Source of the DNA: an uncultured Acidobacteriota bacterium
GTDB lineage: Bacteria > Acidobacteriota > Terriglobia > Versatilivoradales > Versatilivoraceae
Assembly (NCBI GenBank): GCA_963803155.1
Contig: CAWDMN010000059.1
Coordinates: 300,636 to 364,635, forward strand
Length of the DNA: 64,000 nucleotides
Reading direction: 5' to 3'
Shown here: positions 14,283 to 33,669 of the stretch, one piece after another
Layout: each line of letters starts with the position of its first letter
Numbering within the stretch: the first letter of the stretch is position 1
Notes under the pieces: generated by a model
Database searches by the model: none
Told to the model about the DNA's origin: nothing
Seen by the model: the letters and a program-made list of their open reading frames with translations, nothing else
Position numbers and translations under genes: made by a program

Positions 14283-16010
14283 CTATTGCGTCCGAATTCG
14301 GCGAGTCGCATTATCTCTTTTATACTTCTGCCGATCCGGCGAGACCGGCTCTATAAATCCCGCCAAAGCATAAATCAATGCGGCATTCCAGTTAATGGCA
14401 ATTTCATTGGTTTGATAACTGTCCTGAATGTCAATCCAGCTGACCGCTCCTCGTCCCGCCGTATCTGACCAACCCCCACCCACCAGATATCCGGGCCAGG
14501 GATCGACAACTGAGTCGCCCCCGGAACGCCGGTCATGAGGATGCATGGGAGGATCCAGTCCCAATCCGGTAACAAAAGAGCGATTGTAATAATTTCTTCC
14601 GAACAGGTGCCCCAGCGCATCCAGCGCGGTGTTCGAGTAATCGGGATTCGGCACCAGCCGGTTGGCGAGTTGCAGAACCACGGTTTGGCGAGCTACACCG
14701 CCATTGCATCCCCAATAATAAGAAGTGCCCAAAGGCCGTCCGTAACCGTGGGCATTTCGCTGTGCCACAATGGAATTGGCGGCTGAAAGAAGGGCCTCCT
14801 GCACACTCTGCCGCAGAGCTGGATTTTTGCCGCTCCGGCTGGAAAGCAGATAGGTGAACATCCCCAAGTTCTTGACGTTCCACCAATCCCAATCAATATC
14901 GATTTTGGGAGACTGAACATTAGCACGAGCTTCGAAATCACTCAAAAAAGCAGACTCGCCCGTGGTTTCCCACATTTCCGCAGCCGCCCACAGACGGTCA
15001 TCAGGATCGGTGGTTTCATAACCCCCGGTAGAAAAACCCGTCTGATCGGCATTGTGATTGGACTGGATGGCGGCTAAAAATTCATAGCTTTTCCGAGCCG
15101 CTTCCAGACAACGGTTGGCATAGGCAGAGTCGTAAGGTTGATAAATGCGGGCAGCCATGGCTGCCATGGCCACAAAGTCCGCGGTCGCCGCGCTGCTCCA
15201 GGGAACAAAGAAGCGGTCAGCCGTTTCCTTCTCAGGCAGGACAAAACCGCCAAAATTCAAGGTGCTGACCTTATGATAGACCGAGCCATCAGTAGCCTGC
15301 ATCGTGAGGAGCCAGTCCACCTCCCACTTCATTTCATTCAGGAAATCCGGCAAGCCATTCCCGGATTCCGGCAAATCCAGTGATATCTGCCGAAGCTTCG
15401 CCTGATATTGCTCCCAAGCCATGAACATCACCCCAACGGTCACCCCCGCATTTACTACATATTTGTTGTAATCTCCGGCATCATGCCAACCTTGTGTGCC
15501 GGTCTGTTTAATGTGGCTGTGCTCCACATAATCCAAATAAGCATCATTCATGTGGCAAGCTTCATGGGCATAAGTGTTGCCGTTATGCGTACCGGAGACT
15601 GCCGTCCCGCAACGCCAGAGGTACATTCCGCGCATGACGGTGTAATAAGGAAGATTATAAAGAGTCCGGCTGATTTGAAATGAAGTGGACCGGCCGACTC
15701 CGGGGACTTCCAAAAAAAACTGTCCTGAGTCCCGCGCCTCCGAGAAATCAGCCAGATAAATAGATTCAGCGGTATCGGCGTTTTGTACAGGTCCAGTGAC
15801 TGTCCCGCTGAAGACCGTGGAATTGTCAGAAACTCGAACAAGATTAAATTGTGCGCAGGAAGCTGCAATTGAGGCTCGCTTGACCTGCCAGGGAAGAAAG
15901 CCTAACGAGTTCAAACGGATTTGAGCATCCGAGGCATGCAGGACCGTCACGCCCCAAATTCCTAGCAACATAAAGAAAATCCCATGACGGTTTGTTCCTT
16001 TTGAAATCAT
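14283..16010 (-). CDS. glycoside hydrolase family 9 endoglucanase with N-terminal Ig-like (CelD_N) domain
   Basis: The GH9 signature GWHDAGDYNKYVVNAG is present, together with the catalytic region near the C-terminus. It has a signal peptide. Confidence 0.85.
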   Translation of the reverse strand: MISKGTNRHGIFFMLLGIWGVTVLHASDAQIRLNSLGFLPWQVKRASIAASCAQFNLVRVSDNSTVFSGTVTGPVQNADTAESIYLADFSEARDSGQFFLEVPGVGRSTSFQISRTLYNLPYYTVMRGMYLWRCGTAVSGTHNGNTYAHEACHMNDAYLDYVEHSHIKQTGTQGWHDAGDYNKYVVNAGVTVGVMFMAWEQYQAKLRQISLDLPESGNGLPDFLNEMKWEVDWLLTMQATDGSVYHKVSTLNFGGFVLPEKETADRFFVPWSSAATADFVAMAAMAARIYQPYDSAYANRCLEAARKSYEFLAAIQSNHNADQTGFSTGGYETTDPDDRLWAAAEMWETTGESAFLSDFEARANVQSPKIDIDWDWWNVKNLGMFTYLLSSRSGKNPALRQSVQEALLSAANSIVAQRNAHGYGRPLGTSYYWGCNGGVARQTVVLQLANRLVPNPDYSNTALDALGHLFGRNYYNRSFVTGLGLDPPMHPHDRRSGGDSVVDPWPGYLVGGGWSDTAGRGAVSWIDIQDSYQTNEIAINWNAALIYALAGFIEPVSPDRQKYKRDNATRRIRTQ

Positions 16011-19180: not shown

Positions 19181-22100
19181 ATGAAGAGCAAATCACAGAA
19201 AACACGGGCAGGTTTTACCGTTCCACTTCGATGGTTCATATTGGCTGCAACAATCACAATTTGTCTCAATAGCGCAATTCCCCAGGCAGAGGCTGCCAAT
19301 GATTGGAGCCCCCGGAACGGTCCGGAGGGGGGATATGTTGGCGAAGTGGCAGTGGATTATACTGACTCTAACCTTGCATATTTGTCGAATTTTGGCGGGA
19401 TCTTTAAGACCACTAATGGCGGCGTGACCTGGACCAATTTAAATGCCTATTGGGGAGCATCATCAAAAATACTCCTCGACCCCACTAACCATACTACTGT
19501 TTATCTGGTAAGCGGCCGCATCATAAAAAGCACCGATGCTGGTGCCAACTGGACCATACTTGACACTAAGATCCCCTGCAACGATTTCGTGGTTGCCATG
19601 GTGATGGATCCCAAGACCCCCAGTACGCTCTATGCCATCATAGCGACCAGTGCGACGACCGGCTTTGACTATTACGTAATCAAGAGCACCGACGGCGGTG
19701 GCACATGGAACAAGCTAGCCTGGAAAGCTTATGCTTTGGCAATTGATCCGACCAACAGCAACATCCTGTATGCCAGCACGACCAGCGGCCTTCAGACCAG
19801 CACAAACGGCGGCAGTTCCTGGAGTCCTGCCGGAACCGGATTGCCCGCCACGGACACTTTGGGCACAGTCGTGGTGGATCCCAAGACACCCACCACGCTA
19901 TATCTGACCTCGGGCGGAAAAGCAGTGTATAAAAGCATCAATAGCGGCGGGCAATGGCAACTTTCCAATACCGGAGTTACGGGGGTCAATCTCAAAGATC
20001 CAGTGATCGATCCCATCAATTCCGCCAATTTATATCTCGTCGCCACGGACTCCACGACTACCTTCGGAGGCGTTTACAAAACTACTAATGGCGCGGGCCA
20101 ATGGAGTTCCCTTAATCTGGGCATATCGACGGCAAGTGTTCAAATTGTTGGATTGGCCCCCTCCAATCCCGCGAATGTCTATGCGGGAACCTTTCAGCAC
20201 GGTGTATTGAAAAGCAGCGATAGTGGAACCACCTGGGCAGCCCAAAATGCGGGATTGAAAGCTTCCATCGAATACATGGCCCTGGACCCTACCGATAAAA
20301 ATACCATTTATGCAGGAGTCCCTGGATTGGGCGTCTTTCAGAGCACCGATGGAGGCAATAATTGGATTTCTCGCAATGCGGGATTGGGAAGCCAGTTTGT
20401 TGTGGCCATTGCCATAAGTCCAACTACGAGCAAGACGCTCTGGGTTTCCATCAATAACGCCAGCGAAATAGATTTGGGAGGCGGAGTGAAGTTTTTGGTG
20501 CCGGGGATCTATAAATCCACGGATGGCGGGGCAAACTGGACGCTTACGACGACTCCAGCTGACGACTTCAGTTTTTATGCTCCAACCAAACTGATTGCGG
20601 ATCCAGTCAATGCCAATGGCGTCTATGCGCTGGGAGTTGCCAGCATATATCACAGCACTGATGGCGGGAGCACCTGGACATCCTCTAAAGCCGGATTGCC
20701 GGCCACTGCCGTTTTGAATTGTCTTGCCATCGATCCCAGCAGCCCGGCAACCCTCTATCTGGGTCTGTATGTCTCAGCTGCGGGTACGCCCTTAATCTAT
20801 AAGAGCGTCGATGGGGGCACGACCTGGAGTCCGTCTGGTTCGGGATTGCCCAACACACAAGGGATTTTTGATTTGGCCATTGACCCGAAAACGCCATCGA
20901 CATTATATGCTTCAGTCTTGACTTCGATCACGGTCAACGGCGGGGTATTTAAGAGTACCAATAGCGGCGGGAGCTGGCAGGATACCACATCAGGAATTCA
21001 ACAACTGATAACCAACTATACCGGCACTCTGTATGGAAATCTTCACTATCCGAGCGGTTTTCAATTTTGCTCGACCCAATTCCTGATCACGGGCATGAAT
21101 CTAGCCATAGACTCAACCACCCCGTTTACCCTCTTTGCCGTTGTCAATGGAATTGTCTTGCGCACCACGGACGCAGCTGTCACATGGAATATTGCTTCCT
21201 CCGGCTTGCCGTTCGTTCCATATCAAATTGGAGTGAGTCGTGCCGATCACACGGCCGTTTACGCGGCCATCCAGGGAATCTGGGTGTATGTCGGCAGCGG
21301 TGGAGGCGGAGGAGGAGGTGGCACCTCGTCGCTGTCCGTGAGTTCACCCAATGGCGGGGAAAGCTGGTTGATTGGATCCGCCCAAAACATCACATGGTCT
21401 ACAACGGGAACAGTGGGAAACGTGAAAATTGAATTCTCCACAAACGGAGGAACTAGTTATACCACCATTATCGCCAGCACTCCCAATTCGGGAAGCTATA
21501 GCTGGACCGTTCCCAATACTCCTTCTACCACCGTAAAAGTACGCATCAGTGACGTCGCTGGAACTGTCTCAGCCACCAGCAATGGCAACCTCACCATCAC
21601 TGCCAGCTGTTCTTATGCGCTTAATCTCACGAGCATCAATTTTGATTCTCCCGGAGGTATTGGCAATTTAAATGTGACTACCAGCGGCGGTTGTGCCTGG
21701 ACTGCCGCGAGCAATGTCAGCTGGATCACAATCACGTTGGGCTCCAGCGGCAACGGCAATGGAACAGTGAATTACTCCGTGGCAGCCAACAGCGGAGCTT
21801 CGGCACGAACTGGAACTCTCACTATTGGAGGGCAGACTTTCTCTGTCATTCAAGCGGGCACGGAAGGGAACACTTCCGCCACCCTGTTTGTTCCGATATT
21901 GCTTTCCCTTTCCGGCGCGGGCGGGTCATTCTATACCTCGGAGTTGACTCTTACCAACCGTGGAACCACTACCGCCCAGGTGGAATTCACCTACACTGCC
22001 GCATTCAGCACCGGCAGCGGAACAGCCACCACTACCTTGCCTCCCGGCCAAGTGATTCAAACGGATTCCATATCCTATTTGAGGGGCTTGGGCATTCCAA

Positions 22101-23335
22101 TCCCTGACTCAGGGAACCGTGGGGGAACATTGCGTGTCCGCTTCTCCAATCTCAGCTCCTCCTCCGCGGCTAGCATTACAGTTCGGACGGCGACACTCGT
22201 CAAGGATAGCGGGGGAAATTTGGTGGGGCGCGCCGGATTGGCCTATCCCGCCATTTCGATTGGCGAGGCGCTTACAGGGACTGCTTTTATCTGCGGATTG
22301 CGCCAAAACTCTTCTGACCGTTCCAATGCTGCTTTCCAGAATCTGGGAGCAAGCAGCGACGGCAGCATCACTTTGCAGGTGACTGTATTTGATGGGAACA
22401 GCGCCTTCTCCCAGATTTTACCCCCCGTTACTCTGGGGCCGGGCCAATTCTTTCAAATTGGGAATGTGCTGACATCGAATGGCCTTTCCCTGACCAACGG
22501 CTACCTGAAAGTGGATCGAACCAGCGGCACGGCTCCATATTTTGCTTATGGGGTTATTAATGACCAAGTCAATTCTGATGGTTCATTTGTGGCTCCGCAA
22601 TCTGTCCCAACGGCGCCTGTGGCGGGGTTGTCATTGCCTGTCATCGTGCAAACCAGCACATTATTGAGCGAACTGGTTCTGACGAATTGGTCCAGCCAAG
22701 CCCGCACCATTAATTTTGCCTTCGCGGATACGGCCTCTCATTTCACCATATCCTTATCGCCCGGCCAACAGCAGATTATCCCTGATATTTTCGCCTACAT
22801 GCGCGATCACTCCGTTCCCGGGATTGGACCCGCGGGAACCACTATTGTGGGAGCCTTGTTTGCAACCGCCACTGGCGGAGATATCGGCGGAGTTGTCGTA
22901 GGGGCCCGAACTTCCTTCTCCGGCGGCGCTGCTGGAGGCCGTTTTGGGCTATTCTATGCAGCCATCCCAATTGGCCATGCCGCCACCAATAGCGCCTGGC
23001 TTTTCGGCCTGCAGCAAAATTCTGAAAATCGGACGAATCTTGCCATTGTGAATACCGGCGAAACGGATGGCAGCAGTGACACCTTTGTCATCGATCTTTA
23101 TGATGGGGCGACTGGAACAATCGCGGCAACCACGGAACCTATTGTGCTCAACGCTCACCAATGGATGCAGAAGGGGGCCATCCTGACTTCGTATGCTCCG
23201 GCAGTCTCGCAAGGGTATGCGCAGGTCCGACGCACTTCAGGAAACAATCCGTTTATCGCTTATGCTGTGATCAACGATGGTGCGGGCGCCGGTCTGCTAA
23301 CTGGGGACGGCGCTTATATTGGAAGCAGCGATTGA
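19181..23335 (+). CDS. large secreted BNR/Asp-box repeat protein (sortilin/GH74-like beta-propeller) with poly-Gly linker, BACON-like domain and C-terminal beta-rich modules
   Basis: Signal peptide. There are more than 15 S-x-D-x-G-x-T-W repeats (STDGGGTW, TTNGGVTW, STDAGANW and others). A GSGGGGGGGTSS linker lies at about 21295-21324. A BACON-like block follows (CSYALNLTSINF...GGCAWTAASNVSWITI...TGTLTIGGQTFSVIQAG). Confidence 0.8.
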   Translation: MKSKSQKTRAGFTVPLRWFILAATITICLNSAIPQAEAANDWSPRNGPEGGYVGEVAVDYTDSNLAYLSNFGGIFKTTNGGVTWTNLNAYWGASSKILLDPTNHTTVYLVSGRIIKSTDAGANWTILDTKIPCNDFVVAMVMDPKTPSTLYAIIATSATTGFDYYVIKSTDGGGTWNKLAWKAYALAIDPTNSNILYASTTSGLQTSTNGGSSWSPAGTGLPATDTLGTVVVDPKTPTTLYLTSGGKAVYKSINSGGQWQLSNTGVTGVNLKDPVIDPINSANLYLVATDSTTTFGGVYKTTNGAGQWSSLNLGISTASVQIVGLAPSNPANVYAGTFQHGVLKSSDSGTTWAAQNAGLKASIEYMALDPTDKNTIYAGVPGLGVFQSTDGGNNWISRNAGLGSQFVVAIAISPTTSKTLWVSINNASEIDLGGGVKFLVPGIYKSTDGGANWTLTTTPADDFSFYAPTKLIADPVNANGVYALGVASIYHSTDGGSTWTSSKAGLPATAVLNCLAIDPSSPATLYLGLYVSAAGTPLIYKSVDGGTTWSPSGSGLPNTQGIFDLAIDPKTPSTLYASVLTSITVNGGVFKSTNSGGSWQDTTSGIQQLITNYTGTLYGNLHYPSGFQFCSTQFLITGMNLAIDSTTPFTLFAVVNGIVLRTTDAAVTWNIASSGLPFVPYQIGVSRADHTAVYAAIQGIWVYVGSGGGGGGGGTSSLSVSSPNGGESWLIGSAQNITWSTTGTVGNVKIEFSTNGGTSYTTIIASTPNSGSYSWTVPNTPSTTVKVRISDVAGTVSATSNGNLTITASCSYALNLTSINFDSPGGIGNLNVTTSGGCAWTAASNVSWITITLGSSGNGNGTVNYSVAANSGASARTGTLTIGGQTFSVIQAGTEGNTSATLFVPILLSLSGAGGSFYTSELTLTNRGTTTAQVEFTYTAAFSTGSGTATTTLPPGQVIQTDSISYLRGLGIPIPDSGNRGGTLRVRFSNLSSSSAASITVRTATLVKDSGGNLVGRAGLAYPAISIGEALTGTAFICGLRQNSSDRSNAAFQNLGASSDGSITLQVTVFDGNSAFSQILPPVTLGPGQFFQIGNVLTSNGLSLTNGYLKVDRTSGTAPYFAYGVINDQVNSDGSFVAPQSVPTAPVAGLSLPVIVQTSTLLSELVLTNWSSQARTINFAFADTASHFTISLSPGQQQIIPDIFAYMRDHSVPGIGPAGTTIVGALFATATGGDIGGVVVGARTSFSGGAAGGRFGLFYAAIPIGHAATNSAWLFGLQQNSENRTNLAIVNTGETDGSSDTFVIDLYDGATGTIAATTEPIVLNAHQWMQKGAILTSYAPAVSQGYAQVRRTSGNNPFIAYAVINDGAGAGLLTGDGAYIGSSD

Positions 23336-23634: not shown

Positions 23635-24741
23635 CTAGTGGGCTCCCCATTTGGCTACCAGGGAATGCATTTCCTCCTCCTGTTCCTCCATGGAAGCCAC
23701 CAGTTTGAACTGGGTGCGGCAACGATCCAGGTTGTGCCCTTCCCGATGGATCTTGAAATACTGATCTCCGGCCAGATAGTCGGTCAAGAAGCGCGTGCCA
23801 ATGATCAGCGTAATCAGCTTTCCAGCCAGAACCAAATGATCACGCTCGATGGGAGTGATAGATTCACCGATCGATTCGAGAAAACCTTTCACGATGGCCT
23901 CGAAGCGCGGCAAAAGCATGGTTACTTTGGATAAGTCCTGCTCATCTTCCTTGGCTGGGCTGGTGCTGGTACGGACTATATCTCCAAAATCAAAATGAAT
24001 CAGACCCGGCATGAGAGTGTCGAGATCGATCACGCAAATTCCTTCGCCCGTTTCATCGTCCAACATCACATTGTTCAATTTTGTATCGTTGTGTGTGACC
24101 CGCAGAGGGATTTCCCCCTTCTGGTAAAGGGCGGGAAGAACATTGAAGATGGCGGCATGACTGCGCAGAAACTCGATTTCTGGCTTGGCTGTAGCAGCCC
24201 GTTGGCAGACGTCCTCTTCCAACGCTTTCAAAAATACCTTGTACCGCATGGGACCATTATGAAAGTTGGGAATAGTATCATGCAATGCCGGACCAGATAA
24301 ATCGGCTAGCTGCCTTTGGAATTTCCCGAAAGCCTTGGCTGCTTCATAGGCCTGCGCAGAGGTTTCGAGCACATCGTAGGTCCGGGCCTTTTCTATGAAA
24401 ATGTAGGCACGCCAGTAATTGCCCTCGTCGTCCTGAAAAAAGCTTCCTCCCTTCCGCGTGGGGATCACGGTGAGCACCCGGCGGGAAACGTCTTTAGAGC
24501 CCTGCTGAATCAACTTCTCGCGAATATGGCTGGTCACCCGCATCACGTTTTCCATCAAGGCGGGAGGGTTCTTGAACACATTATGATTGATGCGCTGTAG
24601 AATATATGGCGCAATGGTCCCACCTTGATTAAAAACTACCCTATAGGTGTCGTTGATATGACCGGTGCCATAAGGGGCAGCTTCGACAAACTCGCCCAAG
24701 ATCTGGAATTGGCCGGCCACGGCCTTAACGTTATGACGCAT
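23635..24741 (-). CDS. APH-family phosphotransferase, anomeric sugar kinase-like (AmgK/NahK-like)
   Basis: Nucleotide-binding N-lobe (GHINDTYRV). The catalytic block HNDTKLNNVMLD...CVIDLD matches the APH HxDxxxxN...D motif. It neighbours a sugar-1-P nucleotidyltransferase. Confidence 0.7.
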   Translation of the reverse strand: MRHNVKAVAGQFQILGEFVEAAPYGTGHINDTYRVVFNQGGTIAPYILQRINHNVFKNPPALMENVMRVTSHIREKLIQQGSKDVSRRVLTVIPTRKGGSFFQDDEGNYWRAYIFIEKARTYDVLETSAQAYEAAKAFGKFQRQLADLSGPALHDTIPNFHNGPMRYKVFLKALEEDVCQRAATAKPEIEFLRSHAAIFNVLPALYQKGEIPLRVTHNDTKLNNVMLDDETGEGICVIDLDTLMPGLIHFDFGDIVRTSTSPAKEDEQDLSKVTMLLPRFEAIVKGFLESIGESITPIERDHLVLAGKLITLIIGTRFLTDYLAGDQYFKIHREGHNLDRCRTQFKLVASMEEQEEEMHSLVAKWGAH

Positions 24742-24753
24742 TTTGTCTCCCTA

Positions 24754-24829
24754 GAAAATCCCCCTTCAAAGGGGGAATAAATTTTCATCCTCTTGTTGTG
24801 CCGTCAAACTGGCATGTGCAGCTCCTCAG
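24754..24829 (-). promoter_or_regulatory. conserved ~76-nt leader element, copy 2 (hairpin TCCCCCTT-CA-AAGGGGGA plus UUUUCU, then SD GGGAG and start codon of the kinase gene)
   Basis: Aligns with 11348-11425, with only about 8 mismatches. Confidence 0.5.
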
Positions 24830-24841
24830 AACATAGCTTGA

Positions 24842-24913
24842 ATGGAGGCGGGGTGCCCCGCCTGAGTTTGCCACGCTTTCTCAGACGGCCTGAAGGCAGG
24901 CCGCCTCCATCAT
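24842..24913. repeat. structured ~72-bp repeat (family R3), copy 1; the arms atggaggcgg...ccgcctccat close a long imperfect hairpin
   Basis: Its reverse complement is near-identical to 34352-34422. Confidence 0.65.
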
Positions 24914-24984
24914 CCCATTTTCATCTTCATTGTTGTGCCAGCCGAGATGAATGGGCAATGCCAATCAGGCGGATCGGCGCCCCG

Positions 24985-25890
24985 CTAAAGTTTTTCAGGA
25001 TAAATGCCTGCCTGAATCAGTTTCTGGATTCCGGCAATTGCTATCTCTTTATCTTCGCGATAGGTGACCCCAAACCAGGAATCGGGAGTAGGCAACACTT
25101 TGACGCGGGCCTGCCGATTCGAAAGCAAGGTTCCCACCTCATCGGAAATGAAAAATTCCGCTTTGGGATCCTGCCCTCGCCGACCAAGGAAATCTTTGAA
25201 TTGGCTTTGCAGGCGATCAAAGATTGAGGGGTAGAAACCCCAGAGGTTCATGGAAACAATCTCATCACCCGTAAGGGGAAACGCCTGCCCTTCTTTCTCG
25301 ATGAATCGGGCGCCTTGTCCATTTTTTTCAATTTTAGTGCGCTCGACGATTTTGTTTAAAAACATCTGAGCATCGTGGGAGCAAACCCCCCGCGCCACAT
25401 ACCCATGTTCAGAGAGAGTGTTCCGCAGGGTATAGCCTACCATCGAGTAATCATCGCTATTTCGGAGAGAACCGTTGGAAGAAAAAAAGTCCGCAATGAT
25501 TTGGAATGAGTTTGCGCCATAATAATCGTCCGCGTTGATGACCGTAAAAGGCCCATCCATCGTCTCTCGAGCCACCAGAACGGCATGACCCGTCCCCCAA
25601 GGTTTCTCCCGATTCTCCGGAACTGCAAGATCTTCCATGCAACAATCGAGCTCTTGATTCACATAAGCTACCGGCAACTTCTCTTCGAATTTACTTCCGA
25701 CTTTCTCTCGAAACACTTCTGAAAAATGATCCCGGACGATGAAGACGACTTTCCCAAAACCGGCCCGGACCGCATCATAAATGGAATACTCGAGAATCGT
25801 CTCCCCATGAGGTCCAACCGGATCAATCTGTTTTAGACCACCATAACGACTCCCCATTCCGGCAGCCATAATAAGTAAAGCTGGTTTCAT
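24985..25890 (-). CDS. sugar-1-phosphate nucleotidyltransferase family protein
   Basis: The N-terminal LIMAAGMGSRYG is a variant of the GxGxR nucleotidyltransferase loop. 301 aa. Confidence 0.7.
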   Translation of the reverse strand: MKPALLIMAAGMGSRYGGLKQIDPVGPHGETILEYSIYDAVRAGFGKVVFIVRDHFSEVFREKVGSKFEEKLPVAYVNQELDCCMEDLAVPENREKPWGTGHAVLVARETMDGPFTVINADDYYGANSFQIIADFFSSNGSLRNSDDYSMVGYTLRNTLSEHGYVARGVCSHDAQMFLNKIVERTKIEKNGQGARFIEKEGQAFPLTGDEIVSMNLWGFYPSIFDRLQSQFKDFLGRRGQDPKAEFFISDEVGTLLSNRQARVKVLPTPDSWFGVTYREDKEIAIAGIQKLIQAGIYPEKL

Positions 25891-26634
25891 TTTAATCTCT
25901 CAAAATAAGTTCTTAAATTTGAATCCATATAAAATAACAGAAAGGATAATAAAATACGCTCCCCCTGCACCGGAGCAAACGGTATTGTGGCAAAACAACT
26001 GTCCGCCAGCAAGAATAAGATGATAATCCACATGATTTTTTTTCAGGGATACAACAACTGAGTGGATATTGGCGGAGCCGTCGATTGATGGCATCTACTC
26101 AGCTCTTCGCTGTCAACCGATCAAATCAAGAAGCACAAAACCTAAGAGAGTATTTAATTTCTTAATCGTTCACTTCCAAGGCTTAGGCTCAGGAATAAAC
26201 CACGGGAATCATGGGTAATCAATCACGCAATTCCCCACCCCGATCACTCGCTAGTGTTTCCCGTTTCTGTGTTTAATCGCTTTTCGGAGGTTTGCCAAAC
26301 AGTTGTTTTTTCTCTTTGCATTTTTTTTCAAGTGAAGGACAATTTCTCCGTTAGCTGGTTAGGATTAACATTTGGGATTGAGATCCTCATGCTGCATCAA
26401 TCCCGTCATCCCGTCAAAGCGGGAGCAGAAGTTTTTGAGGGTTTGGTATGCGCCACCCGAGCCTGGAGGGACCGGCCCGTCCAGGAAAAGCAGTGGAGGT
26501 TCTATAGCTTCAAAATTGCCCGTCAATCCGCACGGATCTTTGAGCGCGGATTATTGAATTATTGAAGAGTTTTTCATTGTGTTGAGTAAGGCTTGCCAAG
26601 CGCGGTGGTTTTGCGCGGAACGGATATCACGGCC

Positions 26635-27981
26635 ATGAAATCATTAAAAATAGGAATTTCCGGAGTGCGCGGAATCGTCGGAGAGACTTTTACTCCTGAG
26701 CTCGCATGCGGGTTTGCCGAGGCTTTTGGCACTTATATGGATGGCGGACGAATATTGGTCTGCCGGGACCCGCGCCCTTCGGGACCGATGGTAGTTGCCG
26801 CTGTTTCCGCCGGCCTTTTGGCTTCCGGCTGTGAAATCGTGGACTTGGAGATCTGTCCCACACCCTCTTTGCAAATAGCGGTTCGTCAGATGAAAGCCCA
26901 AGGAGGCATCTCCATTACGGCAGGCCACAATCCCATGCACTGGAATGCCTTAAAATTCGTGCGGGGCGATGGTCTTTATTTGAATTCCTCACAAGCGGAA
27001 GAATTGCTCGATGTTTTTCATCAGGGAGAATTCAACAAGGCCAGCTGGAGGGAAATGCAGACCTCCATCCCCAAAGGGGATGCGCTGGAACTGCATCTCG
27101 CGGCTCTGCGTCCGGCCTTCGATATAGAGAAGATTAGCTCTCGCAAGCTTCGTGTGGCCGTGGACTGCTGCAACGGTTCCTGCTCCGTTCTCAGCCCGCG
27201 ATGGCTGGAGGTGCTGGGTTGCCAGGTTCTGGCCGTCAATGATGACCCCTCGCTTCCTTTCCCCCGCAATCCCGAGCCTAGGCGGGAAACCATGGCCCAG
27301 CTTCGCGCGGTGGTCAAAGCCGGCCAGGCCGATATCGGATTTGCCCATGATGCCGATGGAGAACGGCTGGGAATCGTTACTGAGTCTGGTGAGCCCCTGG
27401 TGGAAGAAAAGACTTTGGCCATGGCAGTCCAAATTAAGCTTGCCCAAAAGACCGGGCCCGTGGTTACGAATATTTCCACCAGCCGGGCCATTGAATTAAT
27501 CGCGCAGCGATTTGGAGCTTCGGTCATCCGCACTCCCGTCGGCCAGGCTTATATTTCCGAGGCTATGCTGGAACATCAGGGAGTCATTGGCGGCGAAGGG
27601 AGCGGCGGAGTCATTATCCCAGAAGTGCAGATGACTCACGACAGCACTGCGGCCTTGGCTTTAGTGCTGGAATGGATGGCTGTCACCGGCAGCCGGATTT
27701 CAGAGTTGGCTGAAAGCATCCCTCAATTGGCTATCGTGAAACATAATATCTCCGTCCCGCCGAATCGTATTTATACACTTTTGCAGGGATTTTTAGAGCG
27801 GGTTGAGAGAGAAGAACCCGCGGAAATTAATTTGACGGATGGCATTAAGATCAATTGGCCAAATGGATGGGTGCATTTGAGGGCCTCGAACACAGAGTCA
27901 ATGATCCGGATCATCGCCGAAGCCGCTACAGCCGCTGAAGCACAACAATTTCTTGACTGGGCACGCGACCGGCTTTCCTGA
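26635..27981 (+). CDS. alpha-D-phosphohexomutase paralog 1 (phosphoglucosamine/phosphomannomutase-like) with catalytic Ser replaced by Gly
   Basis: Start taken at MKSLKIGISGVRG. The active-site loop reads ITAGHNP (codon GGC), where the family has TASHNP. The metal loop is DADGER instead of DxDxDR. The sugar-binding and phosphate-binding regions are otherwise conserved. Confidence 0.8.
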   Translation: MKSLKIGISGVRGIVGETFTPELACGFAEAFGTYMDGGRILVCRDPRPSGPMVVAAVSAGLLASGCEIVDLEICPTPSLQIAVRQMKAQGGISITAGHNPMHWNALKFVRGDGLYLNSSQAEELLDVFHQGEFNKASWREMQTSIPKGDALELHLAALRPAFDIEKISSRKLRVAVDCCNGSCSVLSPRWLEVLGCQVLAVNDDPSLPFPRNPEPRRETMAQLRAVVKAGQADIGFAHDADGERLGIVTESGEPLVEEKTLAMAVQIKLAQKTGPVVTNISTSRAIELIAQRFGASVIRTPVGQAYISEAMLEHQGVIGGEGSGGVIIPEVQMTHDSTAALALVLEWMAVTGSRISELAESIPQLAIVKHNISVPPNRIYTLLQGFLERVEREEPAEINLTDGIKINWPNGWVHLRASNTESMIRIIAEAATAAEAQQFLDWARDRLS

Positions 27982-28099
27982 CAAGTTGAAATTCGGCTTT
28001 GGGATTTTGACTTAGAAGCCCACTTCCCGCCGGAATACGCTCATCGCGCCTTCTCGACTTGTTGGCGAATGGAATTGTGCATTACCCTTTATTTTATCT

Positions 28100-28131
28100 G
28101 GATCTTGCCGCGATTGGTCGCGGCAAGATCC
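28100..28131 (+). promoter_or_regulatory. perfect 14-bp stem / 4-nt loop hairpin (ggatcttgccgcga-ttgg-tcgcggcaagatcc) between the two mutase paralogs
   Basis: Read directly from the sequence. There is no U-run after it. Confidence 0.6.
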
Positions 28132-28144
28132 AAACAGGTGGATT

Positions 28145-29507
28145 TATGCGTGCAATCCCCACATTAAAAATCAGCATTTCCGGTGTTCGCGGAGTTGTGG
28201 GAGACTCCCTGACACCGACGCTACTGACCCGTTTTGCCCAGGCCTTTGGCACTTATACGAATTCCGGCACCATTGTGATCGGACGCGACACCCGCACTTC
28301 GGGCGAAATGGTCCGACAGGCCGTGATAGCCGGATTACTCTCCAGCGGGTGCCGTGTCCTCGACTTGGATATCTGTCCCGTTCCTACCATCCAATGGATG
28401 GTCCGGCATTTGGGCACTCCTGGCGGCATCGCTATCACAGCCAGCCACAATCCCGCTGAGTGGAACGCCCTGAAATTCGTCGGCGCCAATGGACTATTTC
28501 TGGATTCCGGCCAAGCCCGCGATTTGCTGAACATTTATCACCAGGGGGAATATACTCTGGTGCGTGGTGTCGAGATGCGCTCGGTGGAACATGTCAAGGG
28601 CGCGTGTGACCTGCACATTGCCGCCATTCTCAAGGAATTGGGCCCCCTGGCGGGAAAAGAAAAAAAAATCCGTGTCGTGCTTGACTCCTGCAATGGGGCC
28701 GGCTCGCTGGCAGGCCCTCGGCTGCTCGAAGCCTTGGGCGCGGAAGTCATCCCGGTTTTTAACACTCCCGATGGATCCTTTCCCCGTCCGGCTGAACCGC
28801 TCCCACAAAATTTGGGGGTCTTGTGTGAATCCGTAAAGAAACATCAGGCCGATGTCGGTTTTGCCCAGGATATGGATGCAGACCGGCTGGCCGTGGTTTC
28901 TGAACAAGGAATTCCCATTGGCGAGGATTTTACTCTGGTTTTGGCCACTTATTATGTTCTCAGTCATACTCAGGGCGCGGTTGTCTCCAATCTCTCAACC
29001 AGCCATGCGCTGGATTGGGTCGCGCGCAAATTCCACTGCCCGATTGTAAAAAGCAAGATAGGAGAAGCCAATGTCACCGAGACCATGCGGCGGGAAAATG
29101 CCATCATTGGCGGTGAGGGGAATGGTGGAGTGATTTTTCCCCGCTTGAATTTCGCGCGGGACAGCTTGGTGGGAATGGCCCTCATCCTGCATCTGCTCGA
29201 AAAGTCCGGAAAATCCATTTCCACGCTGATCGGAGAGATGCCCGCCTTCCAGATGGTCAAGGAGAAACTGCCCTGCCCCTCCGACAAAATCCAGCCGGTT
29301 TTAAAAATGCTTCGTCAAAAATACGCAACTTACCCACAGGACTTGCGGGATGGGATAAAAATTGAAGTGCCGGGTGGCTGGTTTCATGTGCGCGGATCCA
29401 ACACGGAACCCATCATCCGCCTGGTTGCTGAGGGAGAATCCGCGAAAATTCTGGAAGACCTCCGTTCTTCAGTCTTCGGGCGGGTGAAGGATTTCTTGGG
29501 CTGCTGA
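28145..29507 (+). CDS. alpha-D-phosphohexomutase paralog 2 (intact active site TASHNP; metal loop DMDADR)
   Basis: Start taken at MRAIPTLKISISGVRG. All four phosphohexomutase domains are recognisable. Confidence 0.85.
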
Positions 29508-31722: not shown

Positions 31723-33669
31723 ATGTCATCCATGCCATTATTGCCAATTCAGCCTACTTCCTCACGAACCGTCGTGGTCAGCACGACCGCGATCGAAGGA
31801 CTGCAATTGGCCATCGGCCAGGAAGTCTCCGCCCGGATTTTGGCCATCAATGCGCAGGGAGAATTGCTCCTCGATATGAAAAACCGGCGGCTCTGGGCAC
31901 AATCCGATCTGCCCCTAGAGCCCGGCCGCGCCATCAATTTGAAGGTCCTCGAAACCACCCCCTCCATCCAGCTTCAATTAATCTCTGCGCCTGAGGTTCC
32001 GGAAAGTCCTCAAGAGTTGACCGCCATGGCCAACTTGATTTTGGCCCAAAAAGCCGAATCGGGGGTAAAAACTGAATTTAATGCGCAGCTTCTCCTGGAG
32101 ACCTTGAAGAATCTGCTCCAAACATCTGATGTGGGAAAACCCAATATCCCACTGGAACAGTTGAAGCAGATTTTGGCTCCTTTGACCGCGGGAGAAGATC
32201 CTCGTCAATTCCTGCAGAACCTCAAAGCTCAACTGGAAAATTCCGGACTTTTTTTCGAGGCCCGATTGCGGACTCTCTTGGAGACTTTTCGCGCGACGCC
32301 GGAAAGCGTCCTGGGAAAAATGTCTTCGGATTTGAAGGTCCTGCTGGGTCAGGTGAATCAGGAATTCGAAAAAATCAATCCACCGCTGCCTCCGCCCCTG
32401 CAGGTTCTTATTGCCCGATTGGAGGAATTGATCGCGCAAATACAGCCGGAGGCAATGGCTGGCCTGGCGCTCCCCCAAACACAGCCGTCAGCTGCTGCAT
32501 CTTCCCCAATCTTGGAGAATGTGAATCTCCCAAACTCCGCGGCAATGGAGGCCGAATCGGATCCTGTTCAACAAATGACACGGGCTTTCATGGGGGAATT
32601 GCAGGATATTAAGCAGGAGGCCACCTCGCAAGCAGCTACAACGGCCGGCAATTTTCAAAGAGTTTTGGATCAGTCGGAAAGTGAGCTTCAACACGTTTAT
32701 ATCAATCTTGCCGGCGCTCCCTTGGCGGAAGCGGACTCCTCTCAAGCAGCAGCTCAAAGTGAAATTAAAGCGTTCGCCAATTTGCTCCAACAGATTAGCA
32801 AGGATGTTGAGATCCTCAAAGCCTCGCCAGAATTGGCTCTTCAACACCTGGCGGGGCAGTTGAAATCGCTCACACCGGCCTTGGAATCCATTTTCGGCAA
32901 GTTGCCTGAGACTTTCCGCTCCATGTTGCAGCCACAGCTGGAAACGTTGCATAAAATCATTCAACAAGTTGACCAGACCCTGCGGCAGGCGGTCATGGAG
33001 TCACGCTCCGCCGTCCAGCATTTCGGCGATCAATTGCGAACCATTCTCGCGAAGACTGAAGAAGATCCGTTTTTCTCCCAGGCAAAATTCAAGATGAACC
33101 CCGCCCAGGTCCAGGAAGCGTTGCGGAATGTACACTCGGAATTGCAGGGACGCCTAATCGAATTAGATCAGCCGTCAGACCTGACGGCCATTTGGAAAAT
33201 GGCTGGCGAGTTGAAAGCCGCTCTTGCCGATCAACTATTGGCGAAGCAGGCGGACACGGCCCTCCATTGGTTGCGGGATGGCAGCTTTGAAGCAGTGATT
33301 CCAATTCAATACCAGCTTTTTCAAAGCCCGGCCCGGATCCGTTTTCAAATTGATCCGGAAGGCCGAAAATCTGGCGGAAAGGACCGGCCCACCACCGTGG
33401 ATATCCGCTTGGAACTTCCCGGCTGGGGGAAGGTCGAAGCTTGGGCCCGCTGGTTCGAAAAGCAGATCGACGTCAAATTGTATTTGGAAGAGGCTGGCAT
33501 TGCCTCGGTCCTTGAAAAACATGCGAGTGAATTGTCTGCTGAGCTGCGGGAGTCCGGGTTCCGGCAGGTGACTGTTGAAGTTCGGGCAGACCCCGTGCGG
33601 CTTTATAAAAAAGAATTGACTCCGGAAAGAGTTGTACTCGAAGGAAAACTGTTGAGTGTTCATGTCTAA
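31723..33669 (+). CDS. FliK-like protein (flagellar hook-length control protein family, C-terminal Flg_hook-like domain)
   Basis: The protein is Q/L/A/P-rich and low-complexity, with a C-terminal block WARWFEKQIDVKLYLEEAGIASVLEKHASELSAELRESGF that is typical of the FliK C-terminal domain. It is followed by a FlhB C-terminal-domain gene. Confidence 0.5.
   Translation: MSSMPLLPIQPTSSRTVVVSTTAIEGLQLAIGQEVSARILAINAQGELLLDMKNRRLWAQSDLPLEPGRAINLKVLETTPSIQLQLISAPEVPESPQELTAMANLILAQKAESGVKTEFNAQLLLETLKNLLQTSDVGKPNIPLEQLKQILAPLTAGEDPRQFLQNLKAQLENSGLFFEARLRTLLETFRATPESVLGKMSSDLKVLLGQVNQEFEKINPPLPPPLQVLIARLEELIAQIQPEAMAGLALPQTQPSAAASSPILENVNLPNSAAMEAESDPVQQMTRAFMGELQDIKQEATSQAATTAGNFQRVLDQSESELQHVYINLAGAPLAEADSSQAAAQSEIKAFANLLQQISKDVEILKASPELALQHLAGQLKSLTPALESIFGKLPETFRSMLQPQLETLHKIIQQVDQTLRQAVMESRSAVQHFGDQLRTILAKTEEDPFFSQAKFKMNPAQVQEALRNVHSELQGRLIELDQPSDLTAIWKMAGELKAALADQLLAKQADTALHWLRDGSFEAVIPIQYQLFQSPARIRFQIDPEGRKSGGKDRPTTVDIRLELPGWGKVEAWARWFEKQIDVKLYLEEAGIASVLEKHASELSAELRESGFRQVTVEVRADPVRLYKKELTPERVVLEGKLLSVHV

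What the first reader, a model, noticed from the sequence alone, without database searches (positions are those of the whole stretch)
26635..29507. Tandem phosphohexomutase paralogs: the first copy has catalytic Ser to Gly and a degenerate metal loop (likely pseudoenzyme); the second is intact
Copy 1 reads ITAGHNP (GGC), where the phospho-Ser of all alpha-D-phosphohexomutases lies (TASHNP in copy 2). Copy 1 also has DADGER in place of DxDxDR. The rest of the fold is conserved, so this is not a decaying pseudogene but a likely non-catalytic or altered-function paralog that is co-transcribed with the active one.
Basis: seen in the sequence. Interest (0 to 1): 0.5.

Follow-up and report, generated by a model that had tools for sequence, protein, structure and literature searches.

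The report
Conserved serine-less phosphohexomutase partner gene
One of two neighbouring sugar-phosphate mutase genes lacks the serine that every characterised enzyme of this family needs, yet it is conserved as tightly as its intact neighbour and stays next to it in many soil bacteria, so it is probably a working non-catalytic partner and not a broken gene.

Summary
Copy 1 (26635-27981, "G") reads ITAGHNP, with Gly97 (GGC) where copy 2 (28146-29507, "S") has the catalytic Ser100 (AGC). Its metal loop reads DADGER against DMDADR in S.

This is not an error or gene decay. All 120 closest homologues and all 80 genome loci of relatives (Blastocatellia/Pyrinomonadaceae) carry Gly, written with all four Gly codons. 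dN/dS is 0.07 for G and 0.08 for S. AlphaFold gives pLDDT 94.

G is an old clade found beyond Acidobacteriota (Armatimonadota and unlabelled lineages). In about 93% of informative loci a canonical Ser-type gene lies directly downstream on the same strand, sometimes with a 4-bp overlap, while the flanking genes differ. The sugar-binding and phosphate-binding loops stay invariant. The metal loop is only mildly altered in most members and is lost in a few.

Best reading: a non-phosphorylatable subunit or regulator that still binds ligand and works with the active mutase in a two-gene module. The module often sits in sugar-salvage operons (anomeric kinase plus nucleotidyltransferase). A physical complex is inferred, not shown.

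The held literature did not describe it. Public annotation calls it "phosphoglucosamine mutase", which is probably wrong.

The parts
26635..27981 (+). G: Ser-less alpha-D-phosphohexomutase paralog (448 aa), archaeal-GlmM-like type
   Evidence: ORF. Four PGM_PMM domains. TIGR03990 score 467 bits. AlphaFold pLDDT 94.4, pTM 0.93. Orthologues start at the same Met.
26914..26934 (+). Phosphoryl-transfer loop ITAGHNP. Gly97 (GGC, 26923-26925) replaces the catalytic Ser.
   Evidence: Aligned to ITASHNP of 1wqa. Gly in 120/120 homologues. All four Gly codons are used among orthologues.
27349..27366 (+). Metal-binding loop DADGER. The third ligand is Glu243 (GAA) where canonical enzymes have Asp.
   Evidence: D239, G242 and R244 are invariant, D241 is at least 90% conserved, and position 243 is E or D (rarely R, G or S) across the G clade.
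27589..27609 (+). Sugar-binding loop GGEGSGG, retained
   Evidence: G320, E321, G322 and G324 are invariant and S323 and G325 at least 90% conserved in 41 diverse G sequences.
27880..27900 (+). Phosphate-binding loop RASNTES, retained
   Evidence: R416, S418 and T420 are invariant across the G clade.
27982..28145 (+). 164-nt spacer between G and S. It holds a perfect 15-bp inverted repeat (28099-28132), an AGGTGG ribosome-binding site and then the ATG of S.
   Evidence: No terminator-like or + strand promoter-like site in the spacer. The hairpin is absent from relatives.
28146..29507 (+). S: canonical partner phosphohexomutase (453 aa) with ITASHNP (Ser100 AGC, 28443-28445), DMDADR, GGEGNGG and RGSNTEP
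   Evidence: The motifs are conserved in 117-120 of 120 homologues.
24985..25890 (-). Context: sugar-1-phosphate nucleotidyltransferase-like gene, divergent from G
   Evidence: Pfam NTP_transferase. PDB 3pnn, E=2.7e-93.
23635..24741 (-). Context: N-acetylhexosamine 1-kinase (NahK) homologue
   Evidence: Pfam APH. PDB 4wh1/4ocj N-acetylhexosamine 1-kinase, E=5e-78.

Best explanation
G is a functional protein that cannot be phosphorylated at the catalytic position. It has lost the phosphoserine nucleophile and so cannot run the family's ping-pong mutase reaction. It keeps the rest of the active-site cleft: the sugar loop, the phosphate loop, His98, Arg12, Lys107 and, in most members, three acidic metal ligands.

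It works together with the canonical mutase S encoded directly downstream, as a conserved two-gene module. Most likely it is a non-catalytic subunit of a hetero-oligomer, or a ligand-sensing regulator of S. It may bind a phosphosugar or the sugar-1,6-bisphosphate activator/intermediate without being able to accept its phosphate.

The module sits at the sugar-1-P / sugar-6-P branch point of sugar salvage, between an anomeric kinase and a nucleotidyltransferase.

Shown: loss of Ser, strong selection, retained binding loops, and conserved G-then-S linkage. Inferred: retained ligand binding, physical association with S, and the regulatory role.
For: 1. Gly at the Ser site is fixed. It occurs in 120/120 nearest homologues, in the 80 genome loci, and in distant members with TAGHND, SAGHNA, SGGHNP or TAGHGP. 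The codons GGT, GGC, GGG and GGA are all used, so the amino acid itself is under selection.

2. Constraint equals that on the active partner. dN/dS is 0.072 against 0.084 over 96 pairs. Mean protein distance is 0.333 against 0.318, r=0.95. Similarity to PDB 1wqa is 296 against 290 bits. AlphaFold pLDDT is 94.4.

3. The binding loops are invariant across the clade, while the metal loop varies (DADGER, DADGDR, DANGER, DLDGRR, DTNGGR, DTAGER). This is the pattern expected if binding is kept and phosphoryl transfer is not.

4. Linkage is conserved. S lies directly downstream on the same strand in 67 of 71 informative genome loci and in about 60 of about 64 informative metagenome loci. The same holds in all five distant loci examined, including Armatimonadota, where the flanking genes are unrelated. 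4-bp ATGA overlaps (L087, L088 and four metagenome loci) suggest translational coupling.

5. In the neighbour-joining tree the G sequences group together and the S partners group together, with similar branching order in both groups.

6. The context is sugar salvage. In this window it is NahK plus a nucleotidyltransferase. In relatives it is a GalK-like kinase, often fused to a nucleotidyltransferase, on the same strand upstream in 36 loci, with GH20, GH3, YdjC and ROK genes in the flanks.
Against: There is no direct evidence for a G-S complex, and I ran no multimer prediction. Adjacency could be a leftover of tandem duplication.

A few loci break the linkage. L020 and L037 have no S within 5-6 kb. 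In L029 and L050 S lies about 6 kb upstream. L091 has an orphan G between recJ and hisD. Some loci carry 1-2 kb or small ORFs between G and S.

The near-complete active site, and the strict invariance of Gly where a dead site would be expected to drift, fit a retained or new chemistry equally well.

Bootstrap support for a single G clade is only moderate: 65% with neighbour joining.

In this window the 164-nt spacer and hairpin leave co-transcription unproven.
Confidence: 0.5

Rival explanations
1. G is still an enzyme with changed chemistry. Removing the Ser side chain leaves room for a metal-bound water or a second ligand. G could then act as a sugar-phosphate or sugar-bisphosphate phosphatase, or transfer phosphate directly between ligands without a covalent enzyme intermediate.
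For: Gly97 and His98 are strictly invariant, and D239, D241, E/D243 and R244 are largely kept, together with both binding loops. That is more active-site conservation than a pure scaffold needs. Some subgroups keep a fully canonical DADGDR loop. An acidic residue at the position after HN (TAGHND/TAGHNE) occurs only together with Asp at position 243, which hints at tuning of the active site.
Against: Every characterised member uses the phosphoserine (PMC6443537). Several G lineages have lost acidic metal ligands (DLDGRR, DTNGGR, DTAGER), which is hard to reconcile with metal-dependent catalysis across the whole clade. A bisphosphatase encoded next to a mutase that needs the bisphosphate would work against it.
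Confidence: 0.2
2. G is a stand-alone phosphosugar sensor or regulator that acts on some other target. It lies next to S only because the pair arose by tandem duplication.
For: Orphan or separated G genes exist (L091, L020, L037, L029, L050). The spacing between G and S ranges from an overlap to about 1.9 kb. From my own knowledge, not tested here: proteins of this fold can regulate other proteins, as GlmM does when it binds the c-di-AMP cyclase CdaA. PDB entries 7ojr and 7ojs (GlmM) appear.
Against: The G-then-S order is kept across phyla while all flanking genes change. 4-bp overlaps occur in several lineages. The divergence of G and S is tightly correlated.
Confidence: 0.2
3. The Gly codon is a sequencing or assembly error, or copy 1 is a decaying pseudogene.
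For: Only the closeness of the two codons: AGC (Ser) and GGC (Gly) differ by a single base.
Against: An independent assembly encodes the identical protein. Gly is found in all relatives, with synonymous codon turnover. dN/dS is 0.07. The reading frame is intact and the fold is predicted with high confidence.
Confidence: 0.01

Closest known systems
Archaeal-type phosphosugar mutases (P. horikoshii PH0923, PDB 1wqa; T. kodakarensis PGM/PMM, PDB 9du5; NCBIfam TIGR03990 'Arch_GlmM')
   Same: Same four-domain fold and same subfamily. G scores 296 bits and S 290 bits against 1wqa. Both pass the TIGR03990 cut-off. The sugar and phosphate loops are of the same type (GGE-G-x-GG, R-x-S-x-T-E).
   Different: Those enzymes have TASHNP and DGDADR. 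G has Gly at the nucleophile position and Glu at the third metal ligand. G also comes as a conserved pair with a canonical paralog.
Vertebrate PGM5 (aciculin), the known inactive member of the superfamily (PMC7761743)
   Same: A conserved paralog of an active phosphohexomutase that lacks mutase activity but keeps substrate binding (abstract read).
   Different: PGM5 keeps a conserved active site, and its inactivity is attributed to active-site loops needed for flipping the intermediate. It is a eukaryotic structural muscle protein and is not encoded in an operon with its active paralog. G has lost the nucleophile itself and is bacterial.
Enzymes built from a catalytic subunit and a paralogous non-catalytic or regulatory subunit (plant ADP-glucose pyrophosphorylase, PMC13041757; ADAT2/ADAT3, PMC12404733; both listed)
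   Same: The proposed logic is the same: gene duplication of a homo-oligomeric enzyme, loss of catalysis in one copy, and retention of that copy as a partner or regulator under strong selection.
   Different: For G-S the complex is only inferred from gene linkage. To my knowledge, and in the literature searches run here, no heteromeric alpha-D-phosphohexomutase has been described.
Glucose-1,6-bisphosphate synthase family of alpha-phosphohexomutases (Slr1334-type; bioRxiv 10.1101/2021.12.02.470922 / PMC9426568)
   Same: A specialised prokaryotic branch of the superfamily whose role is to manage the bisphosphate activator, not bulk mutase flux (abstract).
   Different: From my own knowledge, not tested here: those enzymes still act through the phosphoserine. 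G cannot. No sequence comparison with that family was made.

Membership tests
alpha-D-phosphohexomutase superfamily (fold level) | Four alpha/beta domains, PGM_PMM I-IV | tested here: met
   All four Pfam domains hit, E=1e-33 to 2e-8. The AlphaFold model has pLDDT 94.4 and pTM 0.93. PDB 1wqa aligns over residues 6-442.
alpha-D-phosphohexomutase, catalytically competent enzyme (four-loop definition, PMC6443537) | Loop (i): phosphoryl-transfer loop with the catalytic phosphoserine | tested here: not met
   ITAGHNP, with Gly97 (GGC) aligned to the Ser of 1wqa and of copy 2. Gly is conserved throughout the clade.
alpha-D-phosphohexomutase, catalytically competent enzyme | Loop (ii): metal-binding loop with three coordinating aspartates (DxDxDR) | tested here: inconclusive
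   The loop reads D239-A-D241-G-E243-R244, so the third ligand is Glu. Whether Glu still binds Mg2+ cannot be decided from sequence. Other G lineages have DADGDR (intact) or DLDGRR / DTNGGR (lost).
alpha-D-phosphohexomutase, catalytically competent enzyme | Loop (iii): sugar-binding loop with conserved Glu and Ser | tested here: met
   GGEGSGG at residues 319-325. E321 is invariant and S323 at least 90% conserved.
alpha-D-phosphohexomutase, catalytically competent enzyme | Loop (iv): phosphate-binding loop (R-x-S-x-T-E) | tested here: met
   RASNTES at residues 416-422. R416, S418 and T420 are invariant.
Phosphoglucosamine mutase, archaeal type (NCBIfam TIGR03990 equivalog) | Whole-protein HMM score above the curated cut-off (439 bits) | tested here: met
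   467.4 bits. For this reason public records name G-type proteins 'phosphoglucosamine mutase' (names).
Phosphoglucosamine mutase, archaeal type (NCBIfam TIGR03990 equivalog) | Same enzymatic function (GlcN-6-P to GlcN-1-P through a phospho-Ser enzyme) | tested here: not met
   The nucleophile is absent. Activity itself is not testable here. G should not be filed as GlmM on present evidence.
Pseudoenzyme partner of an active paralog (general class) | Loss of a key catalytic residue combined with strong purifying selection | tested here: met
   Gly97 is fixed. dN/dS is 0.072 against 0.084 for S.
Pseudoenzyme partner of an active paralog (general class) | Conserved genetic linkage with the active paralog | tested here: met
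   67/71 informative genome loci, about 60/64 informative metagenome loci and 5/5 distant loci show G followed by S. 4-bp overlaps occur.
Pseudoenzyme partner of an active paralog (general class) | Physical complex with, or regulation of, the active paralog | not testable with these tools
   No multimer prediction or experiment was possible. A linker-fused model was considered and not submitted.

The most novel reading that the evidence does not exclude
The G-S pair may be the first heteromeric alpha-D-phosphohexomutase. An old, dedicated Ser-less subunit would keep a complete ligand pocket and bind the sugar-1,6-bisphosphate activator/intermediate or a phosphosugar effector. Through this it would control activation or flux of the catalytic subunit at the sugar-1-P / sugar-6-P branch of sugar salvage. 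Alternatively, G has evolved a Ser-independent chemistry. Either way, the rule that the catalytic serine is universal in this superfamily would have a large, conserved bacterial exception.
Probability: 0.35. Interest if true: 0.72.

Novelty: new variant of a known kind. Interest (0 to 1): 0.6.

Why it matters
The phosphoserine is treated as the defining catalytic feature of alpha-D-phosphohexomutases (PGM, PMM, GlmM, AGM1). This is a large, strongly conserved bacterial clade without it, always paired with a canonical enzyme. That points to an unrecognised regulatory or structural layer in phosphosugar metabolism in Acidobacteriota, which are abundant soil bacteria, and in other phyla.

It also has a practical consequence. 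Automatic annotation names these proteins 'phosphoglucosamine mutase' or 'phosphomannomutase', so metabolic reconstructions count an enzyme that probably is not one.

The pair is small and soluble and should be easy to test biochemically. It would also be a clean natural example of how a homo-oligomeric enzyme turns into an enzyme-pseudoenzyme pair.

Tried and rejected
- **Error or pseudogene.** Rejected.
- **NahK plus nucleotidyltransferase as fixed partners of the pair.** Rejected. They are absent from the flanks of the 80 genome loci. Relatives carry a different kinase type there (GalK-like, often fused to a nucleotidyltransferase).
- **The 15-bp hairpin before S as a conserved regulatory element.** Rejected. 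It is absent from 35 other G-S spacers. Its only Rfam match is a chance hit to a plant miRNA hairpin below threshold. Weaker copies elsewhere in the window are not palindromic.
- **Riboswitch or ribozyme in the 744-nt upstream or 164-nt internal spacer.** None found.
- **Taxonomy of the distant loci L084, L086, L087 and L088.** Cluster look-ups returned no organism names. Only Armatimonadota and Acidobacteriota are named by sources.
- **Genome-collection scan with a diverse G alignment.** It returned only Blastocatellia among the best 80. The metagenome scan was also dominated by TAGHNP/DADGER types. The breadth outside these groups therefore rests on a handful of loci.
- **Literature.** Searches for a Ser-less or heteromeric bacterial phosphohexomutase, or for the motif itself, found nothing relevant. 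The search for Ser-to-Ala mutant activity gave no usable passage.
- **Linker-fused G-S AlphaFold model.** Considered but not submitted.
Full report
**1. The observation**

The + strand of 26.6-29.5 kb carries two full-length genes of the alpha-D-phosphohexomutase family.
- Copy 1, called G here, runs from the ATG at 26635 to the stop at 27981 (448 aa).
- Copy 2, called S, runs from the ATG at 28146 to the stop at 29507 (453 aa).
- They are 44% identical (E=4e-130).
- Each has all four PGM_PMM domains.
- Both score above the curated cut-off of NCBIfam TIGR03990, 'archaeal-type phosphoglucosamine mutase': 467 and 486 bits against 439.

G reads ITAGHNP with Gly97 = GGC (26923-26925). S reads ITASHNP with Ser100 = AGC (28443-28445). 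The G metal loop is D239-A-D241-G-E243-R244, against DMDADR in S. Alignment with the closest solved structure (P. horikoshii PH0923, PDB 1wqa) places Gly97 opposite the catalytic Ser and DADGER opposite DGDADR. 'Degenerate metal loop' is the one overstatement, because the change is a conservative Asp-to-Glu substitution.

**2. Not an error and not decay**

- An independent assembly of a public read set encodes the identical protein next to the same neighbours.
- All 120 closest database homologues (66-100% identity, mostly named Acidobacteriota or Pyrinomonadaceae) have Gly at this position, and 119 have DADGER.
- The 120 closest homologues of S have TASHNP (117/120) and DMDADR (120/120).
- Among 80 species-level genomes of Blastocatellia or Pyrinomonadaceae, the Gly is written GGT 34, GGC 25, GGG 19 and GGA 3 times. 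Glu243 is written GAG 52 and GAA 29 times. The residues are therefore kept through synonymous turnover.
- Median dN/dS over 96 moderately diverged genome pairs is 0.072 for G and 0.084 for S.
- Mean pairwise protein distance is 0.333 for G and 0.318 for S, correlated at r=0.95.
- G and S are equally similar to 1wqa, 296 and 290 bits.
- AlphaFold2 models G with pLDDT 94.4 and pTM 0.93.

G is a functional protein under the same constraint as its catalytic neighbour.

**3. What is kept and what is lost**

The family is defined by four active-site loops: the phosphoserine loop, a metal loop with three Asp, a sugar loop with Glu and Ser, and a phosphate loop (PMC6443537). I aligned 41 G-type sequences reaching down to 38% identity.
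- Invariant: G97, H98, D239, G242, R244, G320, E321, G322, G324, R416, S418, T420 and R425.
- At least 90% conserved: R12, K107, D241, S323 and G325.
- Variable: position 243, which is E or D, and in some lineages R, G or S.

The metal loop across the clade reads DADGER, DADGDR, DANGER, DSDGER, DLDGRR, DTNGGR or DTAGER.

The nucleophile is therefore gone everywhere. The metal site is mildly changed in most members, intact in some and destroyed in a few. The two ligand-binding loops are always kept. This fits a protein that still binds a phosphosugar or bisphosphate but cannot form a phospho-enzyme.

**4. An old clade, always paired**

A search of 1.84 billion cluster representatives found 19 of 152 aligned sequences without Ser at the site.
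- In a neighbour-joining tree, all G proteins taken from linked pairs group together, along with several of these representatives. Bootstrap support is 65% for a clade holding all G and no Ser-type sequence.
- The S partners group inside the canonical Ser-type radiation (77%). One partner, L084_S, falls outside this group.
- The branching order within the two groups is similar.

The key finding is linkage.
- In 67 of 71 informative genome loci, an S-type gene lies directly downstream of G on the same strand, with spacing from 1 nt to 1.9 kb.
- In the metagenome set the figure is about 60 of 64 informative loci, four of them with a 4-bp overlap.
- All five distant G members I could place have the same G-then-S arrangement amid unrelated flanking genes. 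They are P0242 from an Armatimonadota MAG (SAGHNA/DADGER), P0246 (TAGHGP/DADGDR), P0397 (TAGHND/DADGDR), P0404 (SGGHNP/DADGER) and P0413 (SAGHNP).
- Two of those five have ATGA overlaps.
- Exceptions exist. L020 and L037 have no S within 5-6 kb. In L029 and L050, S lies about 6 kb upstream. L091 is an orphan G between recJ and hisD.

**5. Genomic context**

In this window, G is divergently flanked by a nucleotidyltransferase (PDB 3pnn homologue, E=3e-93) and an N-acetylhexosamine 1-kinase homologue (NahK; PDB 4wh1, E=5e-78). These exact genes are not conserved neighbours, but a functional analogue is.
- In 36 loci, a GalK-like GHMP kinase lies upstream on the same strand: immediately upstream in 14, and with one gene of about 440 aa between in 22. 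That gene is an MFS transporter in L097.
- In L002, L073 and L097 the kinase is fused to a MobA-like nucleotidyltransferase, giving a protein of about 860 aa.
- GH20 hexosaminidase, GH3, YdjC and ROK (NagC-like) genes are frequent in Blastocatellia flanks.

The module therefore sits where sugar-1-phosphates are made by anomeric kinases and are either activated to NDP-sugars or, through a mutase, passed to sugar-6-phosphate catabolism.

**6. Mechanism**

Shown:
- G lacks the nucleophile.
- G is under strong selection.
- G keeps its binding loops.
- G is genetically coupled to a canonical paralog across phyla.

Inferred:
- G cannot catalyse the ping-pong mutase reaction.
- G still binds ligand.
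- G acts with S, most simply as the non-catalytic subunit of a hetero-oligomer that arose by duplication of a homo-oligomeric enzyme.
- G may act as a sensor or reservoir for the sugar-1,6-bisphosphate that canonical enzymes need for activation. A Ser-less pocket resembles a permanently dephosphorylated enzyme, which is the form that binds the bisphosphate.

I give this model 0.5. Two rivals get 0.2 each. The first is a Ser-independent chemistry, such as hydrolysis by metal-bound water. The strict invariance of Gly and His and the near-complete site favour it, while the lineages with broken metal loops argue against it. The second is an independent sensor or regulator that sits next to S only by descent. 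Error or pseudogene is excluded.

**7. Comparison with what is known**

At fold level G is a member of the alpha-D-phosphohexomutase superfamily. It fails the defining catalytic feature, so it should not be filed as GlmM, PMM or PGM even though it passes the TIGR03990 threshold.

The closest known non-catalytic relative is vertebrate PGM5, which is inactive with substrate binding intact. PGM5 keeps a conserved active site and is a eukaryotic structural protein (PMC7761743).

The proposed arrangement resembles enzyme/pseudo-enzyme paralog pairs such as the plant ADP-glucose pyrophosphorylase subunits or ADAT2/ADAT3. Searches of the held literature found no description of a Ser-less or heteromeric bacterial phosphohexomutase, or of the motif. 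That is absence from this library, not proof of novelty.

**8. Verdict**

It is a new variant of a known kind: a conserved, multi-phylum, Ser-less branch of a classic enzyme superfamily, kept as a two-gene module with an active paralog and systematically mis-annotated. Interest is 0.6. It would be higher if a G-S complex or a new activity is demonstrated.

Noticed in passing
window 28099-28132 (+), inside the G-S spacer: A perfect 15-bp inverted repeat with a 4-nt loop (TGGATCTTGCCGCGA / TCGCGGCAAGATCCA) ends 13 nt before the ATG of S, just upstream of an AGGTGG ribosome-binding site. No T-run follows it. The spacer folds unusually stably (-63 kcal/mol, z=-3.5). The repeat is absent from the G-S spacers of relatives, so it is specific to this lineage. 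It may be an mRNA stability, processing or translation-control element, or an operator.
   Followed up: partly
window 23635-25890 (-): An N-acetylhexosamine 1-kinase homologue (NahK; PDB 4wh1, E=5e-78) is followed by a 301-aa nucleotidyltransferase (PDB 3pnn homologue, E=3e-93). This looks like a two-step HexNAc to HexNAc-1-P to NDP-HexNAc salvage pair, divergent from the mutase pair across a 744-nt non-coding gap (25891-26634).
   Followed up: partly
L002 1986-4571, L073 3359-6001, L097 112-2658 (relatives): Proteins of about 860 aa fuse a GalK-like GHMP sugar kinase to a MobA-like nucleotidyltransferase. They lie on the same strand upstream of the G-S pair, often with an MFS transporter between. 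This is a candidate bifunctional sugar-1-kinase / pyrophosphorylase whose sugar is unknown.
   Followed up: partly
representative proteins P0289, P0365, P0371, P0341 (with P0259, P0268, P0387); also P0311, P0327, P0389: A second, more degenerate group of PGM-like proteins carries Gly, Pro or Thr at the Ser site and has metal loops such as NSDGSR, NSDVSR and CSDMVR. Its nearest Ser-bearing relatives have N-x-D-x-D-R. Their genomic context could not be retrieved. These may be independent losses of catalysis in the same subfamily.
   Followed up: no
G-family sequences: Possible covariation in G. An acidic residue after His-Asn (TAGHND/TAGHNE) occurs only together with Asp at the third metal position (DADGDR/DSDGDR). 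Pro at that site goes with Glu (DADGER). These cases may all belong to one subclade, so their independence is untested.
   Followed up: no
L091 2161-3519: An orphan G-type gene (TAGHNE/DADGDR) overlaps the end of a recJ-like gene by 4 bp and is followed by hisD. No S-type gene lies within 4 kb downstream. This is an exception to the pairing rule.
   Followed up: partly
window 14283-16010 (-), 19181-23335 (+), 31723-33669 (+): Other genes in the neighbourhood: a GH9 cellulase with a CelD_N domain, a 1384-aa Sortilin/BNR plus BACON protein, and a 648-aa protein with a FliK-like (Flg_hook) C-terminal domain. The first two fit a polysaccharide-degrading Acidobacteriota genome.
   Followed up: no
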